This document shows positions 4,925 to 62,049 of a stretch of 64,000 bases of DNA, piece by piece. A program made the position numbers and the translations under genes. Under the pieces are notes generated by a model. That model was not told where the DNA came from. It worked only from the letters and a program-made list of their open reading frames with translations, and did no database searches. Origin of the DNA: the human T2T-CHM13v2.0 reference genome, Homo sapiens; assembly GCF_009914755.1 (NCBI RefSeq), contig NC_060925.1. One strand, given 5' to 3'. Position 1 is the stretch's first letter. The number at the start of each line of letters is the position of its first letter.

Positions 4925-6290
4925 CACAAAAATATAGGCATAGCTACTTTATTCAGGGAGTGAAAGAAAAGTGACAATTGCACAGATAGTAGAAGCTCAT
5001 GCCAGGTGACAGACAGAGACAGAAGACATCAAAATAATTCTTTGATGGCACCCAAAGAGAAGCTCTGAAAGGCCGGTACAGCTGAGGACTTCCTTTGCTC
5101 AGTCTCCACCTGGACAGTGGCAGCATGGCAGCCTCAGAAAGGAAACCTTTTGCTGTCGGGGATCATCATGGGCAGATCACAGGCTAAGGGGAAAGAAGCT
5201 CCCTGTGTATCCCTGGATGGCTTTGATGAGAAGATGCAGGTGGAGCTGTGGAACGAGGTGAGCCAATTATCCCTATCCTTTCGTGGTCCTGATGAATTCC
5301 GAAGCTGTTACTTGCTCTTGGGTGGACACTTTGGCTGGCAGGGTGGGGAAGGTGTCACCAGAGGATATTTCTGCTGGCACTGCTGAGGTGGGCAGGGCTG
5401 TGGACACTTTGGTGGTGGGCAGGGCTCAGGGCACTTCAGGGGTGGACATGGCTCTGGACGCTTTGGCAGGCGGCACACAGGAGGTGGCTGGCAGGGCTGC
5501 TTACATTGCTACTGTTGATAAGACATCCTGCTGGAGTCTCAGAATCTGAAAGAAATTATATAACAGGGTTCACAGGAAGGGACTCCTACAAAGAAAAGCC
5601 AACGTTTATGTAATACCATGGGCTATTTCTCCAGTCTCCAAAAAATTATTTAAACTCCTAATTCCCTTTTCATGACTCTCTGGTTTCTCCTTTCCACTTT
5701 AGCAAATTGCTTTATCAACCCTGGGAAATCCTGTGTTTTCTCATGCAATTTTTCTAAAGAAAATATCTCTGTTATAAAGAATCAAGCATGAAAATAACCA
5801 CTTCATGAAAGGCAGTCACAAGTTCAGATACTCTGGGCAATCTCAGAAGCTATTCCTATCATCATTATCTGTTGTAAAGCCCCAGTGGGCTGATGGGCAA
5901 AGAGCAAAGGGCTGTTTGGGAAGAATTGCAGGCTCTCACACCTGCTAAAACACAAATGTTTGAAAAGGACACCAGAAAGATATAGAAAAAAGGAAAAACA
6001 CTTTGCTTTTACCTCTTCCTCAAATCAAAGCCTTCCTATTAACTTCGCTGTTCATATGAACACCAAGCTACTTACAAAAAAAAGCTAAAACAATGTGTCA
6101 TTATGATCTAATCCTAAGGTTCCATCCACTAAGTAGTGTCAAAACTGTCATCAGAGGTTTGGATCAACCATACTTTCTGTCTTCAGATTAAATTCAACTT
6201 TTGAGGGCCCAAAGAACAGAGAAATTCAAGTAAGCAGACTCACCAGGTTCTCCGAAGCAGATCGGTGCTCAAGTACCAGGAGTTTAGGAG
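4925..6290 (-). pseudogene. SPRR2C: SPRR2C pseudogene, two exons: exon 1 about 6244-6290, intron 5546-6243, exon 2 about 4925-5545; pseudo-CDS 5308-5526
   Basis: Reverse complement of 5308-5526 reads [71 protein letters not shown], with an in-frame TAG at 5509-5511. Donor CTG|GTGAGT at 6238-6243, acceptor TTTCTTTCAG 19 nt before the ATG, AATAAA at 4948-4953. Position next to SPRR2G fits SPRR2C. Confidence 0.93.
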
Positions 6291-6309
6291 TCATGAGGCT
6301 GAGAACCTC

Positions 6310-6480
6310 TTCACAGGGCCTGCTGCCCCACCCAGGGGGAAACGGAACTGCCTAAAATGGGCTGGTCCAGTAATGTCCCATCCAAAATGCAAATTTATCC
6401 ATAACTGGTATGACAGGGAATCTCAAAAAAGGAAATATCCTGTTCTGAGGTCTCCCGCTGGATTAAGTGCTCATGACTCA
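6310..6480 (-). promoter_or_regulatory. SPRR2-type proximal promoter of SPRR2C: degenerate TATA, octamer, Ets-like GGAA, AP-1
   Basis: TGTGAAGAG at the TATA position (6310-6315, 72 nt upstream of the donor); perfect ATGCAAAT at 6387-6394; AGGAAA at 6430-6435; perfect TGACTCA at 6474-6480. Octamer, Ets and AP-1 sites are known SPRR2A promoter elements. Confidence 0.75.
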
Positions 6481-14928: not shown

Positions 14929-15669
14929 CTCTCCTCAGTCTCAGAGAATCTGAAAGATACACACGAAACAGTGCTCATAAGAGAGACAGTCCTGTTGGTG
15001 GAGCAATTAGCTAGGACATCAAATCTCCAGTATCTAGGGACCAACTTTGATCCCTAATACAGTCTTTATGACTTTGTGAACCTTCTTCACACTTCACTTT
15101 TAGGACCTCTTACCCTCAGTTCTTCCGTCTTTCTGGCTGTTCTCTCATTCTACCATTTTCTGAAAATAAAATTGCCTATGAGACAGCAACAAATGTTGTC
15201 TGAATACAAACACTATCTGAAGAAGAAAAACTCAGATATTAAAAGTCTAGCCAATACCAAACAAATCTGTGATCTTATCTTCCATGAGGCCCTAGTTACC
15301 AGTTTTAATGAGCTGGCTGTGGTGCTGAGCCATGAGTTTTTTAAGAGAATTGCAAAAACTTGCACCCATCACCCAAGGAGATTGCACTCCAAGAGAGATG
15401 TATTTGGAACAGATGTGAAGCAGGAGACAGAACAGCATCTTGTGTCTCTCACTCTCCTTCAGTTTAAGATTTTATATATTTGACTCCAGGTTCCTCATCA
15501 CCTTCATGTTTATCTACCAAATACCAGCTAAAATTTACCTTCAAGACCTCATTATCTTCTTTTTCCTATCCATGAGGATAAATTGGTTAAAATAAACAGG
15601 CATTTCTGTACCCAGGTTAGACCCTAACACCATCCAAGTGCAAGAAAAGCTTCTAATATTTGTACTCAC

Positions 15670-15738
15670 CAGAGTCTTCAAAGATCTACAACTGAATGGC
15701 AAGAAGATAGCATCAGTGTGGTGGAGAGTCCTTTTATA
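15670..15738 (-). promoter_or_regulatory. SPRR2G: SPRR2G TATA box and non-coding exon 1 (about 15670-15710)
   Basis: TATAAAA at 15732-15738 (minus strand), donor CTG|GTGAGT at 15664-15669, intron 14950-15669. Confidence 0.88.
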
Positions 15739-18669
15739 AGGGGCAGGCAGCCCTACACAGGGAACAGCCCAGGACTAGCATGATGTGCTTATTTCCCAAC
15801 CAAAATACCACTTGCATGTAATCCATGCTGGTATCACAAAATTCCTAGTCCATGATCCTCCCCAGCAGGATAAGTGCACAGTGATTCACTTGGGACATTA
15901 TCTCAGGTTCCTCATGCCAGTGGCAATTGTAGAACGTGACAAATTGTCTGACAATTGTGGTGCTTCCCTATAATTAGAGATGGTGCTTCTCCTACTTCCC
16001 AGCTTCCAAAGTATCCTGTATGTAAAACTACTCCCATTCAGTTGCACATGCCCAGTATCTAGCTGTGTTCTCTTTAGTAGAGACCAGTATGTGCTGATCC
16101 TGCAGCCTGGCTATATCCTAACCCTCAACTGCAGTTTTTCTTTACAACTAACTTCCCCTTTTATCATGGCCTATTGATCCTTAGGCTTTTCTTGACAATT
16201 AATTGACTTGAACAGGGTGACAAAATCATATATCAGCTTCCTAGATGCTGACAGCCCCAACCTGGGTGTGTTCTGACATGGTATTAATGGGCTTGAACAA
16301 GGCAACATCATCTCTCAGTTTTCTAGGCCATTAGAGTCATGTTGGGGCCCCTTCTTAAAGCTTCACATTTGCAGATTTACACACTAACCTCATCTCTGTG
16401 GCCCTTGTAACTATGAGTGACTTGTGGTCTACTAGAAATCCAAACTCATCTTCTCCCATTTTCTTCCAAACTGCCTTAATGTATGTGCTGCATCCATTTT
16501 GAAGCTTTTCTCCTACATGCTAATTCAATTTACTCCTTCACAATTTCTCTCTTTTGAAATGACATTTAGTAGGATTTCAGGCTTTCTTTGCACATTCGAG
16601 GAGTGAAGTTCTGTAAAGCTATTTATCCTGCTGTTTACTTCATGGATGTTTTTACCTAAATAAGTAAAGTATAGCTGGCACAGATCCCACGGATAATTTC
16701 TTAGTATAGCTTATTTAACCATATTAACACTTCAGCTAGTATTACTCACTGTCCCAACTTGGAAAAAACTTGAGTACCTTGGTTATGCATACATCTACAG
16801 CCACCACTACTGTGTGGAACTAAATATTTCCTAACCTCCTTGAAACACAGTTTACACAGCTGTAAAACAGAAATAAAAAATACACCTACCACAAAAGTCT
16901 CCTACAAAAACTCAAAGAGTGGCCTAAAATTATGCACATTACATAGTGGGTCTTCTAAGAAATATAAACTCTAAAATGTAGAAGAAATAAGAATAATAAC
17001 TAATCATAACTAACCAATAATTTCAAACATGTCAAAAACAGATAATAAAGAATGGCATTGTTTAGAGTGAGGCCTATCTAGTGAAGATCCTTTCCCTGCA
17101 TCCCCCATTCTTCTAGCTGTAGTCACTACTAATTAGACGGCATGGGTACCATAGCACCTACAGGGTCGGCACCTTGTTTTCCTGAGAAAGCCCCTCTCAG
17201 GGAAGATTTTTGCCTTGTGCTCTTTACCCAGAAGAATGCTGTGTTGTATCTGCAATGTTTCAAACTTGATTGGGTTGGTACAGTAGAGAAACAAAAAAAA
17301 CTGAGGACCTAACATGGGAATTTGAAGAGGTAGGAACGTCTTTGAGTTGAGCCCTACTATTAAATTCTTTCTCAGCATCTCAGAGGAACAATATGAGGCT
17401 AGTTATCCCTCCCTAGTACTCTGAAACTAAACAATTTAGTCATCTAAGTTACTATCAGGAAACTGACACACTTCAGGGATGCCAGAAGGAACAGGGATGC
17501 TCCTGGGATGGGTGAGGCACTTTCACAGCGTTCTTTCTCATGTTGAAATCCTAGGAACCATAGCTGATGCATGCTGAAGAATTAGCTAAGGATTACGTGA
17601 CTTAAAACAGTTCTATCAACACAATTTTAGACCTACTTTTCTTTGCCTCATGAATTACTAATAGATTCCAAAGTTATTTTTACCAATAAATTATTTGGTT
17701 TATCATTTATGCTTGATAAACTGAAGGAGGATTGGGCTTTTAAGAAAAGAATGCTTAATGAGGTTTGCCAGCTTCACAAAGGACAGTTTTTTTATAGAGA
17801 GAGAAAATAGCTAAAGGACAGATGATCCTCATTTTTCACAAATAATGGGCACTTGAAGCACTCTGTGCAAATTAAACCTCTGAAACTCACATAGTATCTA
17901 CATGAGGGTTTGCTGGAGTTTACTTATAAACTAGTAACCGTGGTTATCTCAGGAGAATAGTTAAGTATCTAGGGAATAGGAGTGGGGGAGAGACTAACTT
18001 TTCACTGCATGACCATTTTCTTCTCTTTTGAATTTTGGTATCATGTATATTTTTTGCTTATTCAAAGTGTTTAAATATTTAAATGTTCAAAGATATTTTA
18101 AAATTGAAATAAATAAATCTGTGAGTAAATACTATGTTAGCAAACTGGCACTGTATAAACACAATGATTGAGTTAAGTCCTAATTAGGTGTGTAAATTTG
18201 AGCAATTTTCTTAACATTTCTGCAATTTTCAGTTTCTTCATTGAGAAATGGTAATAATAATACTTCTCTGACGGACATTTTTGTAAGGTGCAAATAAAAT
18301 AAATAGTAAGCCTAGTAAAACAACCGTGTAAAGCTGGGAATTATGAGGCTGAATTACCTGGTCCCAAAGTTCCTGATTTGCCTAAAGATTTTGAAAAGAA
18401 GGACAAAGCTATTTTATGGGAGTCCCAGAAATGAAGAAACGAAGGAAGGTAGAGAGGGTAGAAGACAGGCGAGTGGAAAGAAGAGGAAAGGGGAAAGAGA
18501 GAGAGGATGACATTTCCCAAGGGCCATTTGATTTTACTTGATTTAACATTTATAGCCTAGTTCTTTAAGCTCCCAATAAAATTATTTCTATTTTAATAAA
18601 TAAAGATATGCTGCTACTACATAATATGCCTTTAAGTTTTTGAAAATATAGAATTTAAAAATAATAGAA

Positions 18670-38799: not shown

Positions 38800-39260
38800 T
38801 TTGTACCATCTCAGGATATTAATTACAAACAACAAAAGCTCACTCTGACTGATTAAACAGAAAAAGGGTTTATTAAAATATTATTGGGTAGATTATAGAA
38901 CTCTTGGAAAAGCCGCAGAACCAGGCTTGAGGCTAAGCATATAGGGGAAATGTCCAAAAACCACACCACAAAACTAGCCTGGTGAGGAAGTTCTACTGCC
39001 ACAGCGACTGCTCCACCATTGCTACATCATGCCAGGAACACATCTTTGCCTCCTCAGCCAGCCGCAAAAGGGAGCCACCACCCCTGCCAGCAAAATGTCT
39101 TCTGCAAGGAGACCCTCTTCCAATTGTTCCTTTCCAGAGCATAGCTCTGACTGGTAGAGCCTCCGTCACAGTGCGCACCCTGACTGCAAAACAGACTGTG
39201 AGATTTACTTTCTGGGTTCTACCTTGGGGAGAAGGAATACAAGTCTGTAAAATAGTCCAT
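38800..39260. mobile_element. Ancient ERVL/MaLR LTR fragment
   Basis: TCTCAGGATATTAATTACAAACAACAAAAGCTCACTCTGACTGATTAAACAGAAAAGGG..TTTATT resembles old MaLR/ERVL LTR ends. Confidence 0.4.
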
Positions 39261-39649
39261 ACATAGTGACAGTGTGCAAAGAGTACTGGAAAGCAAGGGA
39301 AAGGATTACATATATTTGCTACAGGCCCAAATTATCACTGGTTTTAGATCCAGGCAAGTTGAGACAACACCTGCACTGTCAGCCACATATTTGAAGCATC
39401 TGTCAGGAAATCCAGTTTTGCTAGCTGAAAATGACCTGGATGGATGCTGGGCTTTAAAAAAAAGAAAGAAACAAAAGAAAAGAAAGAAGAAACACTTAAT
39501 ACCTCAGGCAGCAGGCTGTACCCTAGAGTAAGGTAGACCTAACTGTATTTATTAATTGTGCTATGATGTTGACTGCTAAGATGTTATCATGGGTCCCAGA
39601 CCCAGGGAATTGTTAGAATGATCAGAGCTAATATTGTGAGCTTAACAAT

Positions 39650-40742
<1,093 letters not shown>

Positions 40743-41589
40743 CTAACTGGGTCCTAGTATTGGCTATGTAACCCTAGACAAGTTACTTTACATTTCTAGA
40801 CCTCAGTTCAGCAGTTGGAACACGTGGACTTTGGATTTTCTTCTTCCTGGAACTTCCTTTATGCACTCATGTTTGTTACTCACCCATGTATTTATCCATT
40901 GTCCATGTCTGCTTGTCAGTTTTAGTTACCTCCTACCCCCACCTGTCCAAGGTGCTCTTGTCCTCAGAAGATCCCACTGGCATGAATAAGACAGACTTGG
41001 AAACTTTTATCCTAGATAAAACTGGTCTGGAACACATAAAAAGTATTTCCCCAACAATTTTGATTCACTTCAATTCCTGAAATCTAACTTCTGACTTTCA
41101 AAGAAAATTCCACTTTGGCAGCTGTACAGGTACCAACAACAGTTTACCCTTACCTGGAAGAAGAGCCTTGGAGGAGAAAACACACCATGTCGGTATGGGT
41201 GTGACAAAGTCTACTTTTTCTAGCACTCCTGGGGCTCACAGAGAAGGCATTTATCAAGGGGCGAGATGAAAGCAGACTCAGATTTCATATAGCCAGTTCT
41301 TGCAGTCCATGTCAGTAAAAGTGAAAAAGCCCAGCAATAATGCATTGTCTCATTAAGGCTAATGTGAGTAAGATAATTCAAGTATGTAGATTTCTGGTAG
41401 TGTAATTTTATCTCAACAAAGAACTTAGAACAATGAGAAAAGTAAATAGAAACCATAATCCTATCATAACAGCCCCTGAAACCTGTGAGCGCAAGGGGGA
41501 TCTAGAATATTTCCAATGCCCCCTTGCAGTTAGTTAATCCCCTCCCAAAGGCACTGTTCAGATTCCTCACCATAGGTTAGTTTTCCTTA

Positions 41590-49900: not shown

Positions 49901-52900
49901 TTTTTGTGGTTAGTAGGCTATTAATTATTGCCTCAATTTCAGAACTTGTTATTGGTCTACTCAGGGATTCGACTTCTTCCTGGTTTAGACTTGGGAGTGT
50001 GTAATGTGTCCAGGAATGCATCCATTTCTCCTATATTTTCTAGTTTATTTGCGTAGAGGTGTTTATAGTGTTCTCTGATGGTAGTTTGTATTTCTGAGGG
50101 ATCAGTGGTGATATCCCCTTTATCATTTTTTATTGTGTCTGTTTGATTCTTCTCTCTTTTCTTCTTTGTTAGTCTGGCTAGCAGTCTATCTATTTTGTTA
50201 ATCTTTTCAAAAAACCAGCTCCTGGATTCATTTTTTTGAAGGGTTTTTCATGTCTCTATCTCCTTCAGTTCTGGTCAGATCTTAGTTACTTCTTGTCTCC
50301 TGCTAGCTTTTGAATTTGTTTGCTCTTGCTTCTCTAGTTCTTTTAGCTATCATGTTAGGGTGTCGATTTTAGATCTTTCCTGCTTTCTGATGTAGGCATT
50401 TAGTGCTATAAATTTCCCTCTTTATGCTGCTTTAGCTGTGTCCCAGAGATTCTGGTACATTGTGCCTTTGTCCTCATTGGTTTCAGAGAGCTTATTTATT
50501 TCTGCCTTAATTTCATTATTTACCCAGTAATCATTCAGGGGCAGGTTGTTCAGTTTCCATGTAGTTGTTCAGTTTTGAGTGAGTTTCTTAATCCTGACTT
50601 TTAATTTGATTGCACTGTGGTCTGAGAGACTGTTTGTTATAATTTCCATTCTTTTGCATTTGCTGAGGAGTGTTTTACTTCCAATTATGTGGTCAATTTT
50701 AGAATAAGTGCATTGTGGTGCTGAGAGGAATGTACGTTCTGTTGATTTGGGGTGAAGAGTTCTGTAGATGTCTATTAGGTCTGCTTGGTCCAGACCTGAG
50801 TTCAAGTCCTGAATATCCTTGTTAATTTTCTGTCTCATTCATCTGTCTAATACTGATAGTGGGGTGTTAAAGTCTCCCACTATTATTGTGTGAGAGTCTA
50901 AGTCTCCTTGAATGTCTCTAAGAACTTGCTTTATGAATCTGGGTGCTCCTGTATTGGGTGCATATATATTTAGGATAGTTAGCTCTTCTTGTTGCATTGA
51001 TCCCTTTACCATTATGTAATGTCTTTCTTTGTATTTTTTGACCTTTGTTGGTTTAAAATCAGTTTTATCAGAGACTAGAATTGCAATCCCTGCTCTTTTT
51101 TTTTCTATTTGCTACATCCCTTTATTTTGAGCCTATGTGTGTCTTTGCAAGTGAGATGGGTCTCCTGAATACAACACACCAATGGGTCTTGACTCTTTAT
51201 CCACTTTGCCAGTCTGTGTCTTGTAATTGGGGCATTTAGCCTATTTACATTTAAGGTTAATATTGTTATGTGTGAATTTGATCCTGTCATCATGATGCTA
51301 GCTGGTTATTTTACACATTAGTTAATACAGATTCTTCATAGTGTCGTTGGTCTTTATATTTTGGTATCTTTTTGCAGTGGCTGGTACCATTTTTTCCTTT
51401 CCATATTTAGTGCTTCCTTCAGGAGCTCTTGTAAGGTTGGCCTGGGGGTGACAAAATCACTCAGCATTTGCTTGTCTGTAAAGGATTTTATTTCTCCTTC
51501 ACTTATGAAACTTAGTTTGGCTGGATATGAAATTCTGGGTTGAAAATTCTTTTCTTTAGGAATGTTGAATATTGGCCCCCACCCTCTTCTGGCATGTAGG
51601 GTTTCTGCAGAGATACACTATTAGTCTGATGGGCTTCCCTTTGTAGGTAACCTGACCTTTCTCTCTGTCTGCCCTTAACATATTTTTTATTTCATTTCAA
51701 CCTTGGAGAATCTGACAATTATGTGTCTTGGGGTTGCTCTTCTCAAGGAGAATCTTAGAGGTGTTCTCTGTATTTCCTGAATTTGAATGTTGGCCTGCCT
51801 TGCTAGGTTGGGAAAGTTCTCCTCGATAACATCCTGAAGTGTGTTTTCCAACTTGGTTCCATTCTCCCCGTCACTTTCACATACACCAATCAATCGTATG
51901 TTTGCTCTTTTCACATAGTCCCATATTTCTTGGAGGCTTTGTTTGTTCCTTTTCATTCTTTTTTCTCTAATCTTGTCTTCATGCTTTATTTCATTAAGTT
52001 GATCTTCAATCTCTGATATCCTTTCTTCTGCTTGATCAATTCAGCTATTGATACTTGTGTATGCTTCACAAAGTTCTCGTGCTGTGTTTTTCAGCTCCAT
52101 CAGGTCATTTATCTTCTTCTCCAAACTGGTTATTCTAGTTAGCAATTCCTGTAGCCTTTTATCAAGGTTCTTAGCTTTCTTGCATTGGGTTAGAACATGC
52201 TCCTTTAGCTCAGAGGAGTTTGTTATTACCAACCTTCTGAAGCCTACTTCTGTCAATTCATCAAATTCATGCTCCATCCAGTTTTATGCCCTTGTTGGAG
52301 AGGAGTTGTGATCATTTGGAGGAGAAGAGGCATTCTTGGTTTTGGAATTTTCAGCATTTTGGGGCTGGTTTTTCCTCATCTTCATGGATTTATCCGCCTT
52401 TGAGCTTTAATGCTGACGCCCTTTGGATGGGGTTTTTGAGTGGGTGTCCTTTTTGTTGATGTTGATGTTATTGCTCTCTGTTTGTTAGTTTTCCTTCCAA
52501 CAGTCAGGCCCCTCTTCTGCAGGTCTGCTAGAGTTTGCTGGAGGTCCACTCCAGACCCTGTTTGCCTGGGTATTACCAGTGGAAGCTGCAGAACAGCAAA
52601 GATTGCTGCCTACTCCTTCCTCTGGAAGTTTCATCCCACAGGGGTACCTGCCTGATGCCAGCCAGAGCTCTCCTGTATGAGGTATCTGTCGACCACTCCT
52701 GGGAGGTGTCTCCCAGTCAGGAGGCACAGGGGTCAGGGACCCACTTGAGGAGGCAGTCTGTCCCTTAGTAGAGCTTGAGCACTGTGCTGGGAGATCTGCT
52801 GCTGTCTTCAGGGCTGGCAGGCAGGAAATTTTAAGTCTGCTGAAGCTGCACCCACAGCCACCCCTTCCCCCAGGTGCTCTGTCCCAGGGAGATGGGAGTT

Positions 52901-53666
52901 TTATTTATAAGCTCCTGACTGGGGCTGCTGCCTTTCTTTCAGAGATGCCCCACCCAGTGAGGAGGAATTTAGAGAGGCAGTCTGGCCACAGCCGCTTTGC
53001 CATGCTGTGGTGAGTTTGGCTTCCTTAACACTGTAAGGGGAAACGGCCTACTCAAGCCTCAGTAATGCTAGACACACCTCCCCACACCAAGCTCAATCCC
53101 AGGTCAACTTCAGACAGCTGTGCTGGCAGCAAGAATTTCAAGCCAGTGGTTCTTAGCTTGCTGGGCTCCATGGGACCCGCTGATCAAGATCACTTCGCTC
53201 CCTGGCTTCAACACCCTTTCCAGGAGAGTGAACAGCTCTGTCTCACTGGGGCACCAGGCACCACTGGTGTATGAAAAAAAACTCCTGCAGCTAGCTCAAG
53301 GTCTGCCCAAACAGCCACCTAGTTTTGTGCTTGAAACCCAGGACCCTCATGGTGTAGGCACACGAGGGAATACCCTGGTCTGTGGGTTGCCAAAACCATG
53401 GGTAGTATCTGGGCCGGGTAGCACAGTCCCTCACGGCTTCCTTTGGCTAGGGACGGTAGTTCCCCACCCCTTTGCACTTCCCGGGTGAGGCAACGCCCCA
53501 CCCTGCTTCTGCTCACCCTCCATGGGCTGCACCCAATGTCTAACCAGTCCCAATGAGATGAACCAGGTACCTCAGTTGGAAATGCAGAAATCACCTGCCT
53601 TCTGCGTTGGTCTTGCTGGGAGCTCCAGACCAGAGCTGTTCCTATTCAGTCATCTTGCCAGCTCTC
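46926..53666 (-). mobile_element. Near full-length L1PA7/L1PA8-like LINE-1 (5' UTR, ORF1, ORF2, 3' UTR, poly(A)); ORFs disrupted
   Basis: 5' end GAGAGCTGGCAAGATGACTGAATAGGAACAGC at 53666. ORF1 pieces at 52277-52041 and 51956-51687; ORF2 start MMTGSNSHITILTLNVN at 51293; [16 protein letters not shown]. Flanking repeats TTTAAGAATTTTTTTAT (46871-46887) and TTTAAGAAATTTTTTAT (53667-53683). Confidence 0.95.
47611..47938 (-). mobile_element. AluS (Sq/Sp-like) nested in the L1, containing an internal inverted duplication
   Basis: TSD CCTGACTTTTT on both sides; Alu body otherwise typical. Confidence 0.93.
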
Positions 53667-54649
53667 TTTAAGAAATTTTTTATCTATGTTCTTGAAAGAG
53701 GTTCACCAAAGTTTTTCTTTTACATTTGAAATTTTTATATTGTTTTCTTCTACTTCAACTTGAATTTCCATTTTACTTCTTTATGACATTTTTAGTGTAA
53801 CATATGCTTAAATATATTTATTGACTACTCTCTTTGAAAGAATGTGTAAGTACATTGAAATTGAAATATTTGTCTATTATTCCCTATGGTTATAAGGCTC
53901 TGTGTTTATAAATTCTTCTAAGTCAGACATCATTATACTTATTAGGATTAATAATAATTATTGTTCATTTTACCAAATAAAATATACTTATATTTTATAG
54001 ATAATTATATTTAAAGTTTTATTAGAAACATTTAATGAACTTATAAGAGCTGTCTCTTTTTTGTTTTCAATTACTTCATAGAACCATAGAAAATATTATC
54101 TGTTGATAGTTTCCATCTTTTTATATGTAAGTAACTAAGGAAACTTGTTTATGTGGCTACTCAAGTTGGGTTTCCTGGCAGAGATGAGGGAGATTGCCAG
54201 AACATACAATTTAGTATGCTCCCAGATTCTAACACATAAGATGGGCCATGACAAGGGATACTAATGTTCCTGAAGAAGTAATGATCAAGTTGTAAGTCAT
54301 AGGGGTAGTACAGAAGGTCCAGGGAAGTTGCCAAGGTGGGATGAGTAAGGAGAAAAAATGCCTTAGGAACAGGGGACACAGAGTCAAAGAAAGGACGATA
54401 CCAACTCCTGGGAGGGGCAGACACTGCAGTTCCTAGCCATCTGTGGGGCAGCCCCACAAAAGCCTCCTGTAGGGTGGGCAGTCTCAGGAGCGAGTGCAAT
54501 GGGGATGTCTTGTCACTGACATTAAAGAAAGGGGTGATGAGAGAGGGTGTTTCTCCCTTGTGGTATTTTGGGGAATAATCTTCTTCACTGATGTTGTCTT
54601 ATACTAAAGTACTTTCTTCTTTCTCTCAGTTTACTTTCAACTAGGGAAA

Positions 54650-54825
54650 ATTTCCTAGCAGCAGCAGAAATAAGGCAAAGTCCCCTGCCAGCACCACTCC
54701 CAACTCAGGTCCCACAGCCCTGTCCTCCCCAGGTGCCTGAGCCCTGTCTCCCACCCTTCATACAGTAGAAGTCCAGCTGTTAATACCACTTATGCCAGCA
54801 AGACTGCGCAGCAAAGCAGAAATGA
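54650..54825 (+). pseudogene. Decayed SPRR-like gene (relic A), coding exon
   Basis: TACTAA (54602-54607), pyrimidine tract, acceptor AG at 54628-54629, then 20 nt to ATT at the start-codon position. With one 1-nt frameshift it reads (M)S*QQQK*GKVPCQ/PLPTQVPQPCPPQVPEPCLPPFIQ*KSSC*YHLCQQDCAAKQK*. Confidence 0.8.
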
Positions 54826-55933
54826 CCCTCAGAAGCCACCTTCTCTGACCTGGACAAGAGGATACTGCATCCCCCGCCCACTTCCATCCCCTTACTTCCA
54901 GCAATAATAGGGACCACCACACAACCTAGAAGATGCTACCTGTCTTCAGATTCAAGATGGAAGATATTGTCATAGTCTACTGGGGTCTCCTCCCTGAATC
55001 TACAGCCCCTCCCAGCTTTTCACCCAGGAGACAACATGGTTTAGACAGAGTGCCACGTTTTCAAACCTTCCACCTGTGATCCAAATATGCCATATTTCCA
55101 CCGGCTACCTTCTCTACCACACTGCCTTCTGCTGGCTATATGAGATTCCTGCAAGAACACAGAACATTCACATCTCTGCCTCAATGGAATTCAAAAACTT
55201 CATTAACGTTTCTAGGAGCAAACATTGTTTAAAAAAATTAACACATGAAAACTGCTTAAATCAATGAAAAATTTGCCAGAATTCTTTACAGCACAACTCC
55301 ACATTCTTTGATGAAGACAATCACATTGTCTGTTTGTATTTTCTCCCTAATAATCTCCATAAATCCTAACAAAGCTCACCCCTTCCTCTGGACTTTGAAC
55401 CTATTCCAAGACCTATGATGTTTTTTTTTTCTCTCTCTGCTTCCCAATCAAACATATGTATCCCTGACTGGTCATGTCTCTGCTCTTTGCTGGAGATGTA
55501 AAAAAGTCAAGAGAGACAAAGTCACAGAGAGACAAAGGACAAATGGAGGAAAGTGGAGACTGAATGGTAAATCCTTGGAAGGACCCTAGAGGCAATCAGG
55601 GGCCACCCAAGAGTGACAAGGGGACCTGGTTCAAGTCAGAAGGTCTTCTTTTTCCCTCTGGTTGCCCAGTCTCAGTCTCTGATTTCAGCTGCCTCCAGAC
55701 CCACCTCTACATGAGGCACCTATCCATTTCTGATTAGGGACTCGCCATGCAAGGAAGGTGAGGAGAGTACACAAAGGAGCCATCAGTGTCAGGGCTGCAG
55801 GAGGGATGAGCATGTGACAGGCCCTGCAAGGTTCATAGATGTGTGAGTGCTCAGCATCTGGGACCAGAATTGTGAGCCTGGCTCTGCACAGAGCCCAGTC
55901 TGTTGGGGATGGACCCCAGAGACAGTTATTACT

Positions 55934-56286
55934 GCAGCAGTTCTCACACTACTTGGCCTTGAAAATAATTTACACACTTAAGATTATTAAGGACCCTAAG
56001 TAGATTTTATTCATGTGATTTACATCTATTGATATTTCTTGTATTAAAAATTAAAACTAGAAAATAACACATTTTACATAAGTAGATATTGCACTAGCTG
56101 GCAGAGTGATGATGTCATTGCATATCATCTACTCTCCGGAAAATTCTACCATAGACTAATGAAAAAATATGAGTAAAAAAGTCAAATAATGTCAGCATTA
56201 TGATTAAAATTGTTTTGATCTCACTGACCCTACTGAATGCATCTCAGGGACCCCAAGGTTCCCACACCACACTTTGACAACCACTG
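55934..56286. mobile_element. hAT-Charlie MITE
   Basis: CAGCAGTTCTCA...GGGACCCCAAGGTTCCCACACCACACTTTGACAACCACTG, with hAT-type TIRs. Confidence 0.7.
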
Positions 56287-56719
56287 GTCTAGGGCATGAT
56301 TGTAGGCCAGGTCTCCAGGGTCTCAGAGCACAACACACCACAGTAGCACAAGTCTCAAAGGGTTGAGGACATTCTCCTTGGTCTCAGCTTACTTGTGGGT
56401 TTTATTTATGCCTGTTGTTTAACTATCCAGCTAAATTAAGTTCTGACCTTTAATTCAATAATCATTAATCAGAACCAATTTAGCACTGCTAAATTGAGTT
56501 CTGTACCATTATTCAACAACCATTGACAACAACAGCTAGAAAGCATCTAGTTTATAAAACCTGAAGACAAAGAGAATAAGACACTGAGGCTCACTAGAGA
56601 AGCCTCCTCGGTTGTCTCCTGCAGCAGTGGGGACACACATGTGCTGCATGAACCATTAGGCTGATCTGACGAGGGCTTCTATTAGGCACAGAGGGCATGT
56701 GGGATGATGTATTGAATGT

Positions 56720-56762
56720 ATGTCTTCATAAGGGACAGCCTTGAATTATGTGCAGGCTTGTG
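56720..56762 (+). repeat. Copy 1 of a 43-bp local duplication (copy 2 at 59092-59134)
   Basis: 41/43 identical by manual alignment. Confidence 0.9.
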
Positions 56763-58226
56763 GAAGCTGAGGAAGAAGGCAGAGCAGAGGATGTCTCCTG
56801 GGTTCCTATCTGGGTTTCTTCCTTGGGTTCCTAAGTGCAACTGGCAGGAGTTTCCTTGGGAGCTAATCATATTCAGTGATTATGGAAGTTTGAATCTAAT
56901 CATATTATATCCCAGTTCTCCTCCCACCAGCCACACAATAGCCTCTCCCTTATTTCCATGGAGGCAAAACCACATCATAGTCAATTGAAAAATATACCTG
57001 AAGGATAAAAAATTTCAAGAACAATCAAGAGTGGAGATGGAAGAGAAAGGATAAGAACTAATTTTATAGTAGGATTGGGAAGGTCCCCCCAAATTGCACC
57101 CACTTCCCTTTTGCCTAGTCAAGATTATAGGTTCCTGGGTCCCTTCACTGTGCACAGGAATGTACCTGCTGGTTGATTTCAGACTGAAACAAAGAGTAGA
57201 GCTTCTGGTTCTTGTTCTAAATCTTGTTATTAAACTCTTCTCCTGGGCCTAAATTTTTCTCAAGCTCTTTGCATTGTAGGTATGTAGAATATATTTTTCT
57301 CTACAATTTCCACAGCTTAAAGTCTTTTTGTTTAAGTTTAGCAGGCAGAATTTCTTAAATAAACTTTAAGCTGACACTACTGCCTGTGTAGGTAAGAACC
57401 CCCATCCATCATCCACTGTCCGGCCCCAAACCACTGATGTGTTTCTAGCACCACCACCTGGGAACTGGTGGTATCAAAAGATCAGAGCTACCTGGGCTAT
57501 GCCTTGGCAAGGAGCACAAGGTGCGTCCTTTGTGAGGCACACACTAGGACTAGGTTTCCATTTCTTTATTTTGAGAGATTAGGTAAACCTTCTCCTTGTC
57601 CGCTGACCAGCCCAGGAAGTCTTGGTGGTGAAGAGAAGAAAAGGATGTAGCTTTTCTTACATCCAATAAGATAAACAAATGCAGCTAGAGGACAAAAGAC
57701 TGGATAAACTGCCACAGGATGGTCGATATGCATTGACCTAGAAAGAGACAGAATCCCCTCTACATCATTCCTGGAGGTGACAGCTCCCCAGGAGGTTTTC
57801 TGTGACCCACTCACCCCCACCGATCATCCAAATGGATTTCCACAGCACGCTGAACAAACTTCAGCCATATTTCCCCACACTTAGCTCTGTGCCTCAACAT
57901 CAGTGACCACACTCACTCTTGCCTAGACTGCAGAGTATTTGTCCAGGTTGCTCTGTATCTTCATTCCCTATGCTGCCCTCAAACATGTGCATGCACACAC
58001 ACTCACACGCACACACATGCACACATGAGGACACAGGCATGCATATGCACACACAGGGTCTAGCCTCTGGGAGAGGCTCAATGACTTTAAACTTCATTTA
58101 ATCCTAAAGAGCAGAGCTAGAGGTGGTGTGAGTTAATGTTAAGCGATTTCATTTCAAGTCTCCGAAAGAGATGGTGGGATTGGGGTGGGGGCATATGAAA
58201 GATGCTAAACACCCAGCCCAGGAATC

Positions 58227-58304
58227 CTTATAGAAGAACTGTTTCCTGGAGATGAGGAGCTCAGCAAGTCCATTCTGCTTGTCTCCTCTCAGACACCAGG
58301 AAGT
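58227..58304 (+). promoter_or_regulatory. Candidate decayed TATA, exon 1 and splice donor of SPRR-like relic B
   Basis: CCTTATAGAAGAACT matches the SPRR2G TATA context CCTTATAAAAGGACT at 13/15. CCAG|G-AAGT lies 71 nt after the TATA, versus 69 nt (SPRR2G) and 72 nt (SPRR2C). Confidence 0.55.
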
Positions 58305-59091
58305 CCCAAAGACCTGAGGTGCTGCTGAGTAAATTAGACCTGCCTCCATATCCCTTTCTCTCACTCCCACATCTCCATCCAGGGCAGCTATCAAACTGGA
58401 ACCCCACTGGGGGCTTAGAGCAATCATACCTCCTCAGGTCTATGAGGGCTGCATGGACACCAGAGCCCCTTGCACACTTCCTGGCCACCATGCTCCAGCC
58501 CACAAGATGACAGCTGTAGATGAAGAAACCAAAGACACAGATCACAGACATGATTCTCTTCGACCTGAGCTGGAACTTAACTTTCTTGGATCCCATGCTT
58601 TGCTCCTCCTTCTGCATCATCTTGAGCTTGTACCCAGGCTAGGGTAAAAAAGGCCTGGGAATTTTACTCTTTCTGATGTTCAATTCTGATTCAATGATAC
58701 AATGTCAAACTGACATGTATTAACCTCCTGAAAAAAAAAGAGAGATCAGATTTTAAAGTAACTAGGAATAGCATAGATGAAGAAGAGAAACAGTCAATAA
58801 TAGGAGAAAAGACAAAATGTCTGCATAACTATTAATAGAATATATCAAAACACAGGAAAATTTGCATGACATTCTAAAAGTCATTTAGTCCTGCCTCCCA
58901 TCAAATTATTCTCCACCAAAAGGCCTTCAAAAGATTAGTTGGCACTTCATTAAACACTTGCTGGGCCAGACAGTTGATAAACTTAGGAAGTGCTGCTACT
59001 GGCCTGAGAAGAGGGTGTTAGCAACTTCTTCCTTACCTCCTGCCACTTCCACCCACATGTGCTGCTCCCACTCTCTGGAACTTTTGGGAGC

Positions 59092-59134
59092 ATGTCTTCA
59101 TAAGGTACAGCCTTGAATTATGTGCAGACTTGTG
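59092..59134 (+). repeat. Copy 2 of the 43-bp local duplication
   Basis: Aligns to 56720-56762. Confidence 0.9.
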
Positions 59135-59583
59135 CTCCCTCCTCCAAACTTTTCCTTCCTCAGACTAAAACTCCCCTACTCCACTTTCCATTTTTTAACA
59201 GGCACTCTATCTTGGTGCTTCCCAAACTTTTTGCTTTTTTTCTGAATCATTGCAATGTGAGAATGATTGTCTCAGACAGCAGCATCCGTAACCAGCCTCA
59301 GCCCTCTGAGTTTGGAGTAGACATGGGCAGGCATCGGCTCCTTGGTGCAGCCCCAGAGATACTCCCCTTGGCTGAGTGCTGTGCTCCAATGGAGGCAACC
59401 ATGGCTTTGATCATGGCAGTGAGTGAGTGGGAGTGAAGGTCTTAGTCCCCAAGGATGGAGAATTAGGGAGAGGAGAGGGAATATCTCACATGTGAACATT
59501 CAGGAGGAAGCTCCTCCACTGCTGTCACTAAAGCATAAAAGTTTATCTCCTGTTTTTTGCAGTGTATCATCAACACAGGAAAG

Positions 59584-59719
59584 ATGACCTAGCAGCAGCT
59601 GCAGCAGTGCCAGATCCCCTGCCAGTCCCCTTCTGGGTCCCCAAGCCCTGCTCTGTACCCCACAGCTGGCAGAAGTGGACTTCCTCTCCATGCTAACAGG
59701 AATACCACCAAAGCCAAAG
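59584..59719 (+). pseudogene. Decayed SPRR-like gene (relic B), coding exon
   Basis: CACTAA (59526-59531), TTTTTTGCAG acceptor (59561-59562), 21 nt, then ATG. With two frameshifts it reads MT*QQLQQCQIPCQSPS/VPKPCSVPHSWQKWTSSPC*QEY/PKPK. Confidence 0.75.
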
Positions 59720-60589
59720 AGGCTCTTCTGAAGCCTCCCTTCCCCGCAGCATCTAGGCAGTACGTTGCTCCCTGCACCCTCTCCAATCTCTTTCTTCCAG
59801 AATCACAAAGCCCAGAAATTACCTTTCATCTACTGAAAGAGAAAGATACCTTCATAGACCAACAATCTGAGAGCAGTTCATCAAGGGTATCCTCCCGGCT
59901 CCTCCTCCAAGCAAGGATTGGACACGTGGGCCATGTTTCGGTCTTCTTTGGTAAACAGCAGACCTGCTCTCCATTCTCTATTTTGACACTGTGTGGTCAG
60001 GACCAGTCAGTTCATCTAACTGTTGCCTCCACCACCACTACTGCCACTGCTGGCTCAAGAAGGCATCTCAAGTATGGAGTTTTCCTTCCTTAGCTCTCTG
60101 TACCCCTGGGTTCCACCATTTTGGGGGTCTTAAGTAGCAAGGATGATCGAAATTCTAAGAAAGAAAAACTGCTTTAGACAATGGTAAAGTCTTAAGAATT
60201 TTCTCTTTCCAATCCTTCAGCTTCAATCAAGACAATTACAACATTTATTTATCACCTCCTCTCCTAAGAGAGCTGACCCCTCAGTCTGCTCCTAAGCCTG
60301 TTTTGAACATGCTGAGATGACTCTTCCTTTCCTCTAGAGGCATGGGGACTCTATCTCACTCATCACACACACCTCCTTCCCTCGTGCTCCCACCCTGAGC
60401 ACCCCACAGCCCACAAGACCCCAACTCTCATGAGCAACAAGGAGAAGACCTTCCCAGGCCACTGGGCCTCCATAGGTGGTGAGTGACTCCTCCCAGGTCC
60501 TTCCCAGAAAACAGCAGGAATTAGACAAAAGTACACTCAGGACCTTCCTGGGGGCCAGGTGTACCATCCTTCCCCTTCCTTATCCTCTT

Positions 60590-61045
60590 TTTAAATTTAT
60601 TTATATTTTTGTGGTAAGAATATTTAACATGAGCTCTATCCTCTTAACAAATTGTAAGTGTATTAATACAATGCAATATTGTTGACTATGGGTACAAAGT
60701 TGTTCAGCAGATCTCTAGAGCTTATTCATCTTACTTAATTATTTTATGCCTGTTGATTAATAACTCATTTCATCCTCCCCCTGTCCCTGGTAACCACTGT
60801 TACAGCCTTTGATTTAATGAATTTGACTATTTTTAGATACTTGATGTAAGTGGAATGATGCAGTATTTGTCTTTCTGTATTTGACTTATTTCACTGCATA
60901 ATGTCCTCAAGGGCCATTTATGTTGTTGAATAAGGCAGAATTTCTTTCCTTTTTAAGACTGGATAGTATTCTATCATGTGTATATACCACATTTTCTTCA
61001 TTCATCTGTTGATGGACATTTAGGTTATTTTCACATCTTAGCTAA
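60590..61045 (-). mobile_element. L1MA-like 3' end
   Basis: TTTTGTGGTAAGAATATTTAACATGAG...CAGCAGATCTCTAGAGCTTATTCATCTT. Confidence 0.8.
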
Positions 61046-61682
61046 AGTTTGATTAGATAAAGCTGCTTATTCCAACTGCTACTGTTCCAGCCCATGCTGC
61101 CTCCTGTGGCAAAAGAAGATCATTAGGGAAACACAGTGCTGCCTCCCACTTTATTAAAAAATATGAAGACCTTGTAAAGCTGGTTAAGAAATTGACAAGA
61201 ACTACTTCAAATCATCTGAAAATGTCCCCCAAATTTCCTGACTTTGTGATCCCACACTCAGTGAAGGAAATGGGTCTCTGCTTTTCACTGCCTTCCTTAC
61301 CTGTGCAAAGAGATCTCGCTTTGTGCCCTGAGCCTGCAGAAGTCACTCTCAACCTGCTGAGGGATTTTCTCTTCATCTCTGCTCTCTCCATTAAGACATC
61401 TGCCCCAGTGGGTCCCCAGTTTATTGCCCTTGCTTGTAGCTGGGAAGGTGATGGTGTCACAGGAGGAAAAAGGAAACAGAAGCCTGGTGGGCACCTTAGG
61501 AGGAGCCCTCAGGTAAAATGTGGACTCCACAGAGGAGTCCGGTAGAGCTTCACTCAAGAGAATGACTCCCATTTACCCACAGGATCCTTCCCTACCATGC
61601 CTGGCCCAGCTACCTCCCTGCCAAGTCCACTCCATCCTGTGTCCTCCCCAGTTCTCCTGAAGTGGGTCTCCCCAGGCAGAGA

Positions 61683-61683
<1 letters not shown>

Positions 61684-61722
<39 letters not shown>
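61684..61722. repeat. (TG)n microsatellite
   Basis: Read directly. Confidence 0.95.
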
Positions 61723-61726
<4 letters not shown>

Positions 61727-62049
61727 TGGAGGATGAAGAGGAGGTGCAGGGCAAGATAAACCCTAGCTGCAGGGAAGGGGAGATGGACACTCGCTGAAGC
61801 TTGAGTCCATCTCTGCTTGGGAGCCTGGATCAGATGGCGGCTGTATCCTGGACAAATCCAACAAGATCTGGGATTTTCAGCCTACACAGCCCAGCGGTAC
61901 CTGCCTCCTGGAATCTCTGGGCCTCATACAGATATATTCATGTTGGAAGCTGACCCTGAGAAACAGATCTCCATCTCCATAAAGTTGGATCTCCCTCCTC
62001 TGACAGACAGTTTATTTGATTCTTATCTCCCCTGCTGAACTTTGTCTTG

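What the first reader, a model, noticed from the sequence alone, without database searches (positions are those of the whole stretch)
54602..59719. Pair of plus-strand fossil genes suggesting an extinct SPRR subfamily distal to SPRR2G
Seen: two decayed exons about 4.9 kb apart align codon for codon at the start. Relic A: CAAC-TAGGGAAA ATT TCC TAG CAG CAG CAG AAA TAA GGC AAA GTC CCC TGC CAG. Relic B: CAACACAGGAAAG ATG ACC TAG CAG CAG CTG CAG CAG TGC CAG ATC CCC TGC CAG. Both have an ACTAAAG branch site and an acceptor 20-21 nt before the start position (19 and 21 nt in SPRR2C and SPRR2G). Both have V/I-P-C-Q where SPRR2 has Q-P-C-Q, and both face opposite to the SPRR2 genes. Established: single-coding-exon EDC genes share this layout. 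Inference: a small paralogous family, distinct from SPRR2, was lost in the human lineage and may be intact in other mammals. I do not recall it being annotated but cannot confirm that.
Basis: partly seen in the sequence, partly recalled or inferred. Interest (0 to 1): 0.88.

Follow-up and report, generated by a model that had tools for sequence, protein, structure and literature searches.

The report
Two dead SPRR-type gene fossils
Between SPRR2G and LELP1 lie two badly decayed copies of one extinct skin-barrier (SPRR-type) gene lineage, one of which now serves as the last exon of a non-coding RNA; this is ordinary gene birth and death in a tandem cluster.

Summary
Relic A (acceptor 54628-29, start-equivalent 54650, stop 54823-25) and relic B (acceptor at 59562, ATG 59584) are real SPRR-type single-coding-exon fossils on the + strand.

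A collinear block of about 236 nt covers the intron 3' end, the acceptor, the 5'UTR and about 20 codons (0 of 1000 shuffles and 0 of 800 genomic controls reach its score). A block of about 270 nt 3' of the stop is also shared. No other EDC gene shares this non-coding similarity, and trees pair A with B (86/94, then 98/97).

Relic A keeps two 24-nt (octapeptide) VPEPC-type repeats, closest to SPRR1A/B. It does not have the nonapeptide repeat of SPRR2. Relic B keeps only the head recognisably.

The intron and the first 14 codons are equally similar (73% and 74%). Both relics carry TAG at codon 3 and the same frame offset. The pair may therefore be one dead gene that was duplicated, not a once-working family.

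Relic A's acceptor is the exon-3 start of the lncRNA LOC101928009. No non-human mammal genome was available, so whether intact orthologues exist is untested. Interest is modest.

The parts
54485..54629 (+). Relic A: 3' end of the former intron, with ACTAAAG at 54603-54609, a pyrimidine tract and the acceptor AG at 54628-29
   Evidence: Collinear with 59417-59562 of relic B. 95 of 130 ungapped columns are identical in the last 142 nt. The sequence is shown.
54630..54649 (+). Relic A: 20-nt 5'UTR part of the coding exon. Position 54630 is also the first base of exon 3 of the lncRNA LOC101928009.
   Evidence: Annotation table supplied with the finding. 13 of 20 bases are identical to relic B.
54650..54691 (+). 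Relic A head: 14 codons reading I S * Q Q Q K * G K V P C Q. The start is lost (ATT), with TAG at 54656-58, TAA at 54671-73, and GGC where relatives have the Cys codon TGC.
54692..54693 (+). Relic A frame break: two extra bases, equivalent to one missing base
   Evidence: The reading frame changes between the head and the repeats.
54694..54825 (+). Relic A body and tail, reading PLPTQ VPQPCPP QVPEPCLP PFIQ*KSSC*YHLCQQDCAAKQK*. Two 24-nt repeats lie at 54706-54752, with TAG at 54766-68, TAA at 54781-83 and the terminal TGA at 54823-25.
   Evidence: TRF finds period 24, 2.0 copies, 83% matches. blastn to the SPRR1A/B repeats gives 82-86%, E 1e-5. The z-score against SPRR1A is 12.
54828..55101 (+). 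Relic A 3' flank (former 3'UTR), homologous to 60312-60575 of relic B
   Evidence: Strict local score 189 at 60% identity over 278 columns. 0 of 300 local-composition shuffles reach it (max 110), and reversed or reverse-complemented controls score 68-72.
54630..56227 (+). Exon 3, the last exon, of the lncRNA LOC101928009 (NR_110685.1). It contains all of relic A. ATTAAA at 56203-08 precedes its end.
   Evidence: Annotation table supplied with the finding. The sequence is shown.
59417..59562 (+). Relic B: 3' end of the former intron, with ACTAAAG at 59527-59533, a pyrimidine tract and an acceptor ending at 59562
59563..59583 (+). Relic B: 21-nt 5'UTR part of the exon
59584..59625 (+). Relic B head: 14 codons reading M T * Q Q L Q Q C Q I P C Q. 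The ATG is kept, with TAG at 59590-92.
   Evidence: blastn to SPRR2G gives 76% over 72 nt (59577-59647), E 5e-8.
59626..59726 (+). Relic B: remains of the body and tail, weakly alignable to 54732-54829 of relic A. A VPKPC motif sits in the same shifted frame as VPQPC in relic A.
   Evidence: Score 97, reached by 12 of 2000 shuffles and 7 of 1000 genomic controls. No similarity to SPRR1/2/4 bodies, z 0-0.8.
60312..60575 (+). Relic B 3' block, homologous to relic A's 3' flank. It lies about 585 nt further from the head than in relic A.
   Evidence: The intervening 59730-60310 is single-copy in the genome.

Best explanation
Relics A and B are two unprocessed, long-dead copies of one SPRR-type 'simple EDC' gene lineage. 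This kind of gene has one non-coding exon and one exon that holds the whole coding sequence. The copies arose by a local duplication of a few kilobases on the LELP1 side of the SPRR2 array.

Both copies keep the last 145-165 nt of the intron, the branch-point-like 7-mer, the acceptor, a 20-21 nt 5'UTR piece and the Q-rich head ending in x-P-C-Q. Relic A also keeps two octapeptide VP(Q/E)PC repeats and a K-Q-K tail. Relic B has lost a recognisable body. Neither can encode a protein. Relic A has lost its ATG, carries four in-frame stops and has a frameshift. Relic B has a stop at codon 3 and a frame shift.

The only remaining activity shown by annotation is that relic A's acceptor is still used. 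It is the 5' end of the terminal exon of the lncRNA LOC101928009, whose first exons lie 13-15 kb upstream.

Shown: the homology, the decay and the annotated splice use. Inferred: the duplication history and an age of roughly 100 million years.
For: - The sequences and frames are.
- All 15 intact family members examined have an acceptor 13-21 nt before the ATG, and the relics have 20 and 21 nt.
- Family queries hit only SPRR2C, SPRR2G and the two relics in 71 kb.
- Protein-level z-scores: A against SPRR2E 5.1, and B against the SPRR2 proteins 5.3-6.2, with 0-1 of 300 shuffles reaching the score.
- The relic A repeats have a 24-nt period and match the SPRR1A/B repeats.
- A-B homology across intron, UTR and head scores 344. 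Genomic controls average 107-113 with maxima of 186 and 172. 0 of 800 controls and 0 of 1000 shuffles reach 344.
- The 3' block scores 189 against null maxima of 90-147 for the whole 6 kb x 7 kb comparison.
- The introns of A and B score only at background against the introns of 8 other family members, z at most 1.65.
- Trees pair A with B at 86/94 on 17 rows and 73 columns, and at 98/97 on 25 rows and 81 columns.
- Both relics are single-copy in the genome.
- Exon 3 of the lncRNA starts at 54630 (annotation table supplied with the finding).
Against: - No exon 1 or promoter remnant was found for either relic. The SPRR2 promoter profile gave E 0.12 and the SPRR2G promoter E 0.22. The upstream regions of the other SPRR genes gave only two SPRR4 matches at unrelated, (CA)n-rich places.
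- Pfam SPRR2 and Cornifin models do not match the read-through pieces, while the SPRR2G control matches at E 1e-21. A genome-wide six-frame scan with the SPRR2 model finds only the 7 known SPRR2 genes.
- tblastn at E 1e-3 found relic A but not relic B.
- Relic B's head scores 45 against SPRR2G and 37-43 against several LCE heads, so on its own it is only a generic simple-EDC head.
- The 3' block is offset by about 585 nt in B. A second, weaker collinear candidate also exists (59690-59938 against 54792-55060, score 118), so the exact structure of B's 3' part is unsettled.
- The trees rest on only 73-81 columns.
Confidence: 0.85

Rival explanations
1. One reading: a small family of two or more working SPRR-like genes, distinct from SPRR2. 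Its members died independently on the way to humans and may still be intact in other mammals.
For: - A and B pair in trees and share derived features not seen in the SPRR1-5, PRR9 or LCE heads: V/I before P-C-Q and a CAAC.AGGAAA 5'UTR motif.
- Relic A combines an SPRR2-like short head with SPRR1-like octapeptide repeats.
- SPRR numbers vary widely among mammals. Passages read in PMC11039687 give 12 in human, 21 plus pseudogenes in dugong and 34 in elephant. Passages read in PMC8192740 give 16-21 in cetaceans.
- The bodies of A and B are far less alike than their heads, as would be expected if the repeats diverged while under selection.
Against: - Coding-head identity (31 of 42) is no higher than intron identity (95 of 130), Fisher p = 1.0. 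There is therefore no sign of purifying selection after the duplication.
- TAG at codon 3 sits in the same alignment column in both relics, and both have the same net frame offset between PCQ and VPxPC. This suggests the damage predates the duplication.
- No orthologue data could be obtained.
Confidence: 0.3
2. A single extinct gene: one SPRR-type gene was already disabled, or died almost at once, and was then copied as part of a duplication of about 5 kb. The 'pair' is then one loss, not a family.
For: - TAG is shared at codon 3, and the net frame offset is shared.
- Similarity is equal in the intron, the UTR and the head: 73%, 65% and 74%.
- Homology reaches into non-coding flanks on both sides.
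Against: - CAG-to-TAG or TAY-to-TAG changes are common in Q-rich heads. SPRR2C has its own TAG at codon 6.
- The two frame shifts may sit at different bases, because the 11-nt and 17-nt spacers differ by 6 nt.
- The bodies are much more diverged than the flanks.
- Relic B keeps its ATG while relic A does not.
Confidence: 0.4
3. Exapted RNA: the relic A exon survives because LOC101928009 is a working lncRNA born from a pseudogene, as has been proposed for TEDAR/LINC00302 in the LCE cluster.
For: - The relic acceptor is the annotated exon-3 start of a BestRefSeq lncRNA (annotation table supplied with the finding).
- The proposed precedent in the same complex is in passages read in PMC13550425.
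Against: - No functional or expression study of LOC101928009 was found. 1 paper holds the name, in a search listing only.
- No Rfam family matches at gathering score in 52000-62000.
- Relic A is decayed at neutral-looking levels.
- Use of a leftover splice site needs no function.
Confidence: 0.1
4. Chance resemblance of CAG-rich and C-rich low-complexity DNA to SPRR heads.
For: - The head motif is short and Q/P/C-rich.
- The Pfam models do not match.
- The Cornifin model hits many unrelated tandem repeats genome-wide.
Against: - 0 of 1000 shuffles and 0 of 800 genomic controls reach the A-B score.
- Family queries hit nothing else in 71 kb.
- The acceptor spacing is correct and matches an annotated splice site.
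- The SPRR1-type 24-nt repeats are present.
Confidence: 0.02

Closest known systems
SPRR2C, the transcribed pseudogene in the same window (4933-6349, - strand)
   Same: It is an unprocessed SPRR pseudogene in the same cluster. It has the same exon layout and is disabled by a CAG-type to TAG change in the Q-rich head.
   Different: SPRR2C is young. It has a single stop, is 81% identical to SPRR2G over 254 nt, and its promoter is 77-85% identical to those of five other SPRR2 genes. The relics are on the opposite strand, are heavily decayed, and share no promoter or non-coding homology with any SPRR2 gene.
SPRR1A and SPRR1B
   Same: The relic A repeats have an 8-residue (24-nt) period with a VPEPC core. 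They are 82-86% identical to the SPRR1 repeats at the DNA level, and the tail ends in K-Q-K followed by a stop.
   Different: The SPRR1 proteins have a long two-part head. The relics have a short head of SPRR2 or SPRR5 length. There is no non-coding homology, and the relics lie at the far end of the cluster.
TEDAR / LINC00302, an EDC lncRNA between LCE2 and LCE3
   Same: It is an lncRNA inside the EDC. Its authors suggest it arose by pseudogenization of an LCE-like coding gene (passages read in PMC13550425). LOC101928009 likewise ends in a dead simple-EDC coding exon.
   Different: TEDAR has experimental evidence of function and of conservation among primates. Nothing comparable was found for LOC101928009. 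Its first two exons are unrelated upstream sequence.
Lineage-specific SPRR expansions (cetacean SPRRc, ruminant PRD-SPRRII / SPRRII-PRD)
   Same: They show that the SPRR cluster repeatedly gains and loses sub-lineages (passages read in PMC8192740, and PMC5155297).
   Different: Those genes are intact and expressed, and are described as absent from human. No sequence of them was available here, so no relationship to the relics was tested.

Membership tests
Simple EDC (SEDC) genes | Lies inside the epidermal differentiation complex at 1q21.3, among other SEDC genes | tested here: met
   The window is chr1:152272001-152336000 of T2T-CHM13, between SPRR2G and LELP1 (annotation table supplied with the finding). 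LELP1 and PRR9 were recovered downstream.
Simple EDC (SEDC) genes | The whole coding sequence lies in the last exon, with the acceptor a few to about 21 nt before the start codon | tested here: met
   The relics have 20 and 21 nt, and intact members have 13-21 nt. Relic A's acceptor is an annotated exon start.
Simple EDC (SEDC) genes | A short non-coding exon 1 with its own promoter upstream | tested here: inconclusive
   No homology to SPRR promoters or upstream regions was found near either relic. Decay could hide it.
SPRR family | A Q/K-rich head containing the QQ..C.x.PCQ-PP motif | tested here: met
   Both relics carry it. The motif is also shared with the PRR9 and LCE heads, so it is not specific to SPRR.
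SPRR family | Central tandem proline-rich repeats of 8 or 9 residues | tested here: met
   This holds for relic A only, with two 24-nt units at 54706-54752. For relic B it is not met, as no repeat or body similarity was found.
SPRR family | A Q/K-rich tail ending in K just before the stop codon | tested here: inconclusive
   Relic A ends AAKQK followed by a stop, like the KQK endings of SPRR1, 3, 4 and 5. No significant alignment of the tail alone was shown. Relic B's tail is only weakly alignable to relic A's.
SPRR2 subfamily (Pfam PF14820) | Match to the SPRR2 profile, and a 9-residue PKCPEPCPP repeat | tested here: not met
   There is no match at E up to 10 for the read-through pieces of A and B, while the SPRR2G control matches at E 1e-21. 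A genome scan finds only the 7 SPRR2 genes. Relic A's repeat is 8 residues long.
Cornifin (Pfam PF02389) | Match to the Cornifin profile | tested here: not met
   There is no match for the pieces. Relic A is not among the 150 listed matches of the genome scan, where 20 more were unlisted. That scan is unspecific in six frames.
Functional protein-coding gene | An open reading frame from ATG to stop | tested here: not met
   Relic A has ATT in place of ATG, four in-frame stops and a frame break. Relic B has TAG at codon 3 and a frame shift.

The most novel reading that the evidence does not exclude
The pair is the human trace of an SPRR-type lineage that is distinct from SPRR1-5. It combines a short SPRR2-length head with SPRR1-type octapeptide repeats, sits in LELP1 orientation, and survives intact in some non-primate mammals. 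In addition, or alternatively, its relic A exon has been kept as part of a working skin lncRNA, which would be a second TEDAR-like case in the EDC.
Probability: 0.2. Interest if true: 0.5.

Novelty: new member of a known kind. Interest (0 to 1): 0.3.

Why it matters
The SPRR cluster is a standard example of birth-and-death evolution, and published counts give 12 human SPRR genes. These fossils, and three more noticed elsewhere in the locus, show that the human array once held more lineages. They mark the old boundary of the array next to LELP1. If orthologues are open in other mammals, the relics would define an additional SPRR subtype and date its loss. They also explain where the terminal exon and splice site of the lncRNA LOC101928009 come from. 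None of this changes how SPRR proteins are understood to work.

Tried and rejected
- **Apparent shared 3' flank between relic B (60829-61044) and SPRR2A/B/D (72% over about 200 nt).** Rejected, because it is a dispersed repeat with 3314 first-look candidates genome-wide.
- **Promoter or exon-1 remnants.** blastn and nhmmer were run with the SPRR2 promoter profile, the SPRR2G promoter and the upstream regions of SPRR1A/1B/3/4/5. Nothing credible turned up.
- **Word-based protein search with relic A read through with X.** No candidate was found.
- **Full HMMER search of 1.84 billion representative proteins with the same piece.** It gave 1 hit, an 824-residue tandem-repeat protein matching through 12 repeats of a YYTCQQD-type motif, which is spurious. 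This library gave no sign of holding mammalian SPRRs, so the blank says nothing about orthologues.
- **Pfam scans.** There were no matches.
- **Rfam over 52000-62000.** There were 0 matches at gathering score.
- **LINC01527 as the name of the lncRNA.** Rejected, because passages in 10.1101/816520 place it beside IVL/SPRR5.
- **TE origin of the lncRNA's exon 1.** This is not supported. The genome search of 38800-39300 found, besides the query itself, only 3 weak matches, all confined to its first 130 bases upstream of exon 1.
- **Further A-B blocks (scores 143 and 122).** They fall within the null range of 90-147 and were dropped.
- **A TAA stop after Cys that looked shared between A and B.** The best alignment does not support it.
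- Earlier-findings search, paper supplements, and the sheep genome paper, which is not held.


Full report
**What is there**

The window is chr1:152272001-152336000 of T2T-CHM13 (annotation table supplied with the finding; confirmed). Both quoted sequences are present.

Relic A has these features:
- ACTAAAG at 54603-54609, a pyrimidine tract, and the acceptor AG at 54628-29.
- A 20-nt leader, then 14 codons from 54650 reading I S * Q Q Q K * G K V P C Q.
- A two-base frame break at 54692-93.
- From 54694, the frame reads PLPTQ-VPQPCPP-QVPEPCLP-PFIQ*KSSC*YHLCQQDCAAKQK, ending in TGA at 54823-25.

Relic B has these features:
- ACTAAAG at 59527-33 and an acceptor ending at 59562.
- A 21-nt leader, then an ATG at 59584 followed by T * Q Q L Q Q C Q I P C Q.

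No ATG-started ORF of at least 40 residues covers either relic in the sense frame.

**Is it more than chance?**

I fetched the rest of the SPRR locus, LELP1 and PRR9 from the same genome and recovered SPRR5, 4, 1A, 3, 1B, 2A-G, LELP1 and PRR9.

- Every intact member has an acceptor 13-21 nt before its ATG.
- In 71 kb (the window plus 7 kb), ten family or relic queries hit only SPRR2C, SPRR2G, relic A and relic B. The SPRR2G head matches relic B at 76% over 72 nt (E 5e-8). The SPRR1A/B repeats match relic A at 82-86% over 35-40 nt (E 1e-5).
- At the protein level, with X at the breaks, relic A scores z 3.7-5.1 against the SPRR1, 2 and 4 proteins. Relic B scores z 5.3-6.2 against the SPRR2 proteins. 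In both cases 0-1 of 300 shuffles reach the score. A against B scores only z 2.1, with 15 of 300 shuffles reaching it.
- TRF finds a 24-nt unit in 2.0 copies at 54706-54752. That is an octapeptide repeat as in SPRR1. SPRR2 has a nonapeptide repeat (sequences).
- Past about codon 21, relic B has no similarity to SPRR bodies, z 0-0.8.

**The two relics are true paralogues, beyond the coding head**

A gapped local alignment of 54480-54720 with 59413-59660 is collinear over about 236 nt. It covers the intron 3' end, the 7-mer, the acceptor, the leader and about 20 codons. It scores 344. 0 of 1000 shuffles reach that score. Two sets of 400 genomic control windows reach maxima of 186 and 172.

With stricter scoring, three blocks exceed all six null comparisons, whose maxima were 90-147:
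- 54488-54740 with 59421-59673, score 255.
- A non-collinear 57-nt piece, 56706-56762 with 59078-59134, score 204.
- 54828-55101 with 60312-60575, score 189.

For the third block, 0 of 300 local-composition shuffles reach the score (max 110). Reversed and reverse-complemented controls score 68-72. Nine family 3'UTRs score 58-107.

The introns of A and B score only at background against the introns of eight other family members, z at most 1.65.

Maximum-likelihood trees of positions -25 to +48 pair A with B at 86/94 (17 rows, 73 columns) and at 98/97 after adding eight LCE heads (25 rows, 81 columns). These alignments are short. The shared non-coding homology is the stronger argument.

Both relics, and their 3' blocks, are single-copy in the genome at the sensitivity of that search.

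In relic B the 3' block lies about 585 nt further from the head than in relic A. A weaker collinear alternative also exists (score 118). This part of the anatomy is not settled.

**A family, or one dead gene copied?**

Between A and B, identity is 95 of 130 ungapped columns (73%, with 24 gap columns) in the last 142 nt of the intron. It is 13 of 20 in the leader and 31 of 42 (74%) in the 14 head codons. Fisher p = 1.0 for codons against intron.

The TAG at codon 3 is in the same alignment column in both relics. The spacers between P-C-Q and V-P-x-P-C are 17 and 11 nt, so both leave the same frame offset.

This pattern is what neutral decay since the duplication would give. It suggests the gene was already dead, or nearly so, when it was copied.

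Several points argue against that reading:
- CAG- or TAY-to-TAG changes are common in such heads. SPRR2C has its own TAG at codon 6.
- The two frame shifts may be independent.
- The bodies differ far more than the flanks.

I therefore leave both sub-scenarios open, at about 0.4 for a single dead gene and 0.3 for two once-working genes.

Non-coding divergence of 27-38% would put the duplication at roughly 100 million years, using recalled neutral rates. This is a very rough inference. It makes 'lost in the human lineage' too narrow.

**What it does now**

Neither relic can encode a protein.

The annotation table supplied with the finding puts the start of exon 3 of the lncRNA LOC101928009 (NR_110685.1) at 54630, which is relic A's acceptor. 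That exon ends at 56227, 19 nt after an ATTAAA at 56203-08. Exons 1 and 2 of the lncRNA (39070-39197 and 40665-41192) show nothing SPRR-like. The genome search of 38800-39300 found, besides the query itself, only 3 weak matches, all confined to its first 130 bases upstream of exon 1. The fossil's splice site therefore survives as the terminal-exon acceptor of a non-coding transcript.

Relic B lies antisense within an intron of the long SPRR2G transcript, between its exons 59850-60154 and 58430-58727 (annotation table supplied with the finding).

No Rfam family matches at gathering score in 52000-62000.

**Family membership**

Location, exon layout and head motif fit the simple-EDC and SPRR pattern. 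Relic A also has SPRR-type repeats and a K-Q-K end.

The Pfam SPRR2 and Cornifin models do not match the read-through pieces, while the SPRR2G control matches at E 1e-21. A genome scan with the SPRR2 model finds only the seven known genes. The Cornifin scan is unspecific in six frames.

Relic A is therefore SPRR-type but not SPRR2. Its head has the length of SPRR2 or SPRR5 and its repeats are of the SPRR1 kind.

Relic B's head alone scores 45 against SPRR2G and 37-43 against several LCE heads. It is assigned to the SPRR type only through its paralogy with relic A.

No promoter or exon-1 remnant was found.

**Comparison with print**

- Passages read in PMC8192740 and PMC11039687 give 12 human SPRR genes. 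They describe large copy-number differences and SPRR pseudogenes in other mammals.
- Passages in PMC10791643 place the origin of SPRRs in stem mammals and of LELP1 in therians.
- Passages in PMC5155297 and PMC6822923 describe the ruminant PRD-SPRRII genes as derived from an SPRR2 gene.
- Passages read in PMC5222828, a study of positive selection across EDC genes in 14 mammals, hold no mention of SPRR2G or of pseudogenes.
- The searches for 'LOC101928009' (1 paper, listing only), 'SPRR2G + LELP1 + pseudogene' (2 papers, unrelated), the SPRR-pseudogene phrases (1 paper, on dugong) and the EDC/primate/pseudogenization terms (11 papers) found no description of these relics.
GENCODE could not be consulted.
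- PMC13550425 (passages) proposes that the EDC lncRNA TEDAR/LINC00302 arose from a pseudogenized LCE-like gene. That is the nearest precedent for relic A within LOC101928009.

**What could not be done**

No non-human mammal genome is reachable with these tools. The two large protein searches gave no candidate and one spurious repeat protein. The key prediction, that open orthologues exist elsewhere, remains untested.

**Verdict**

The pair is real, mutually closest and not SPRR2. 'Family', 'human lineage' and 'intact elsewhere' are unproven.
- This is ordinary birth-and-death evolution in a tandem gene cluster, possibly unannotated as pseudogenes.
- Interest is 0.3.

Noticed in passing
L019:715-1010 (window -111285..-110990, + strand): A clear SPRR3-like pseudogene lies between SPRR3 and SPRR1B. 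It has its own acceptor and ATG and is 73% identical to SPRR3 over 45 residues (E 4e-27). It is broken by stops and frame shifts.
   Followed up: partly
L015:9680-9970 (window -142320..-142030, + strand): A P/C-rich stretch with a 72-residue ORF holding PKCPVP-type motifs lies between SPRR1A and SPRR3. Its best tblastn hit is SPRR2G at E 1e-7. It may be another SPRR fossil.
   Followed up: partly
L019:3396-3458 (window -108604..-108542, + strand): A short piece resembles an SPRR head (Q-*-P-C-Q-P-A-P) and is 62% identical to SPRR2G over 21 residues, E 2e-6.
   Followed up: no
window 15660-16010 (- strand): The SPRR2G promoter and exon 1 have no blastn match to the other six SPRR2 promoters. 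Those six match one another at 77-85% over about 410 nt.
   Followed up: no
window 56706-56762 and 59078-59134: A 57-nt block is 84% identical between the two places and is not collinear with the relic pair. Its nature is unknown.
   Followed up: no
window 60829-61044: An old dispersed repeat with 3314 first-look candidates genome-wide, 76-80% identical to other copies. It also sits 3' of SPRR2A, SPRR2B and SPRR2D.
   Followed up: yes
window 58430-61439 (- strand), reaching to 67804: The long SPRR2G transcript in the annotation table starts about 170 nt from the LELP1 start, on the opposite strand. Its exons flank relic B in antisense.
   Followed up: no
window 57993-58027: A CA-rich microsatellite. 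It probably explains the stray nhmmer matches of the SPRR4 upstream region.
   Followed up: no
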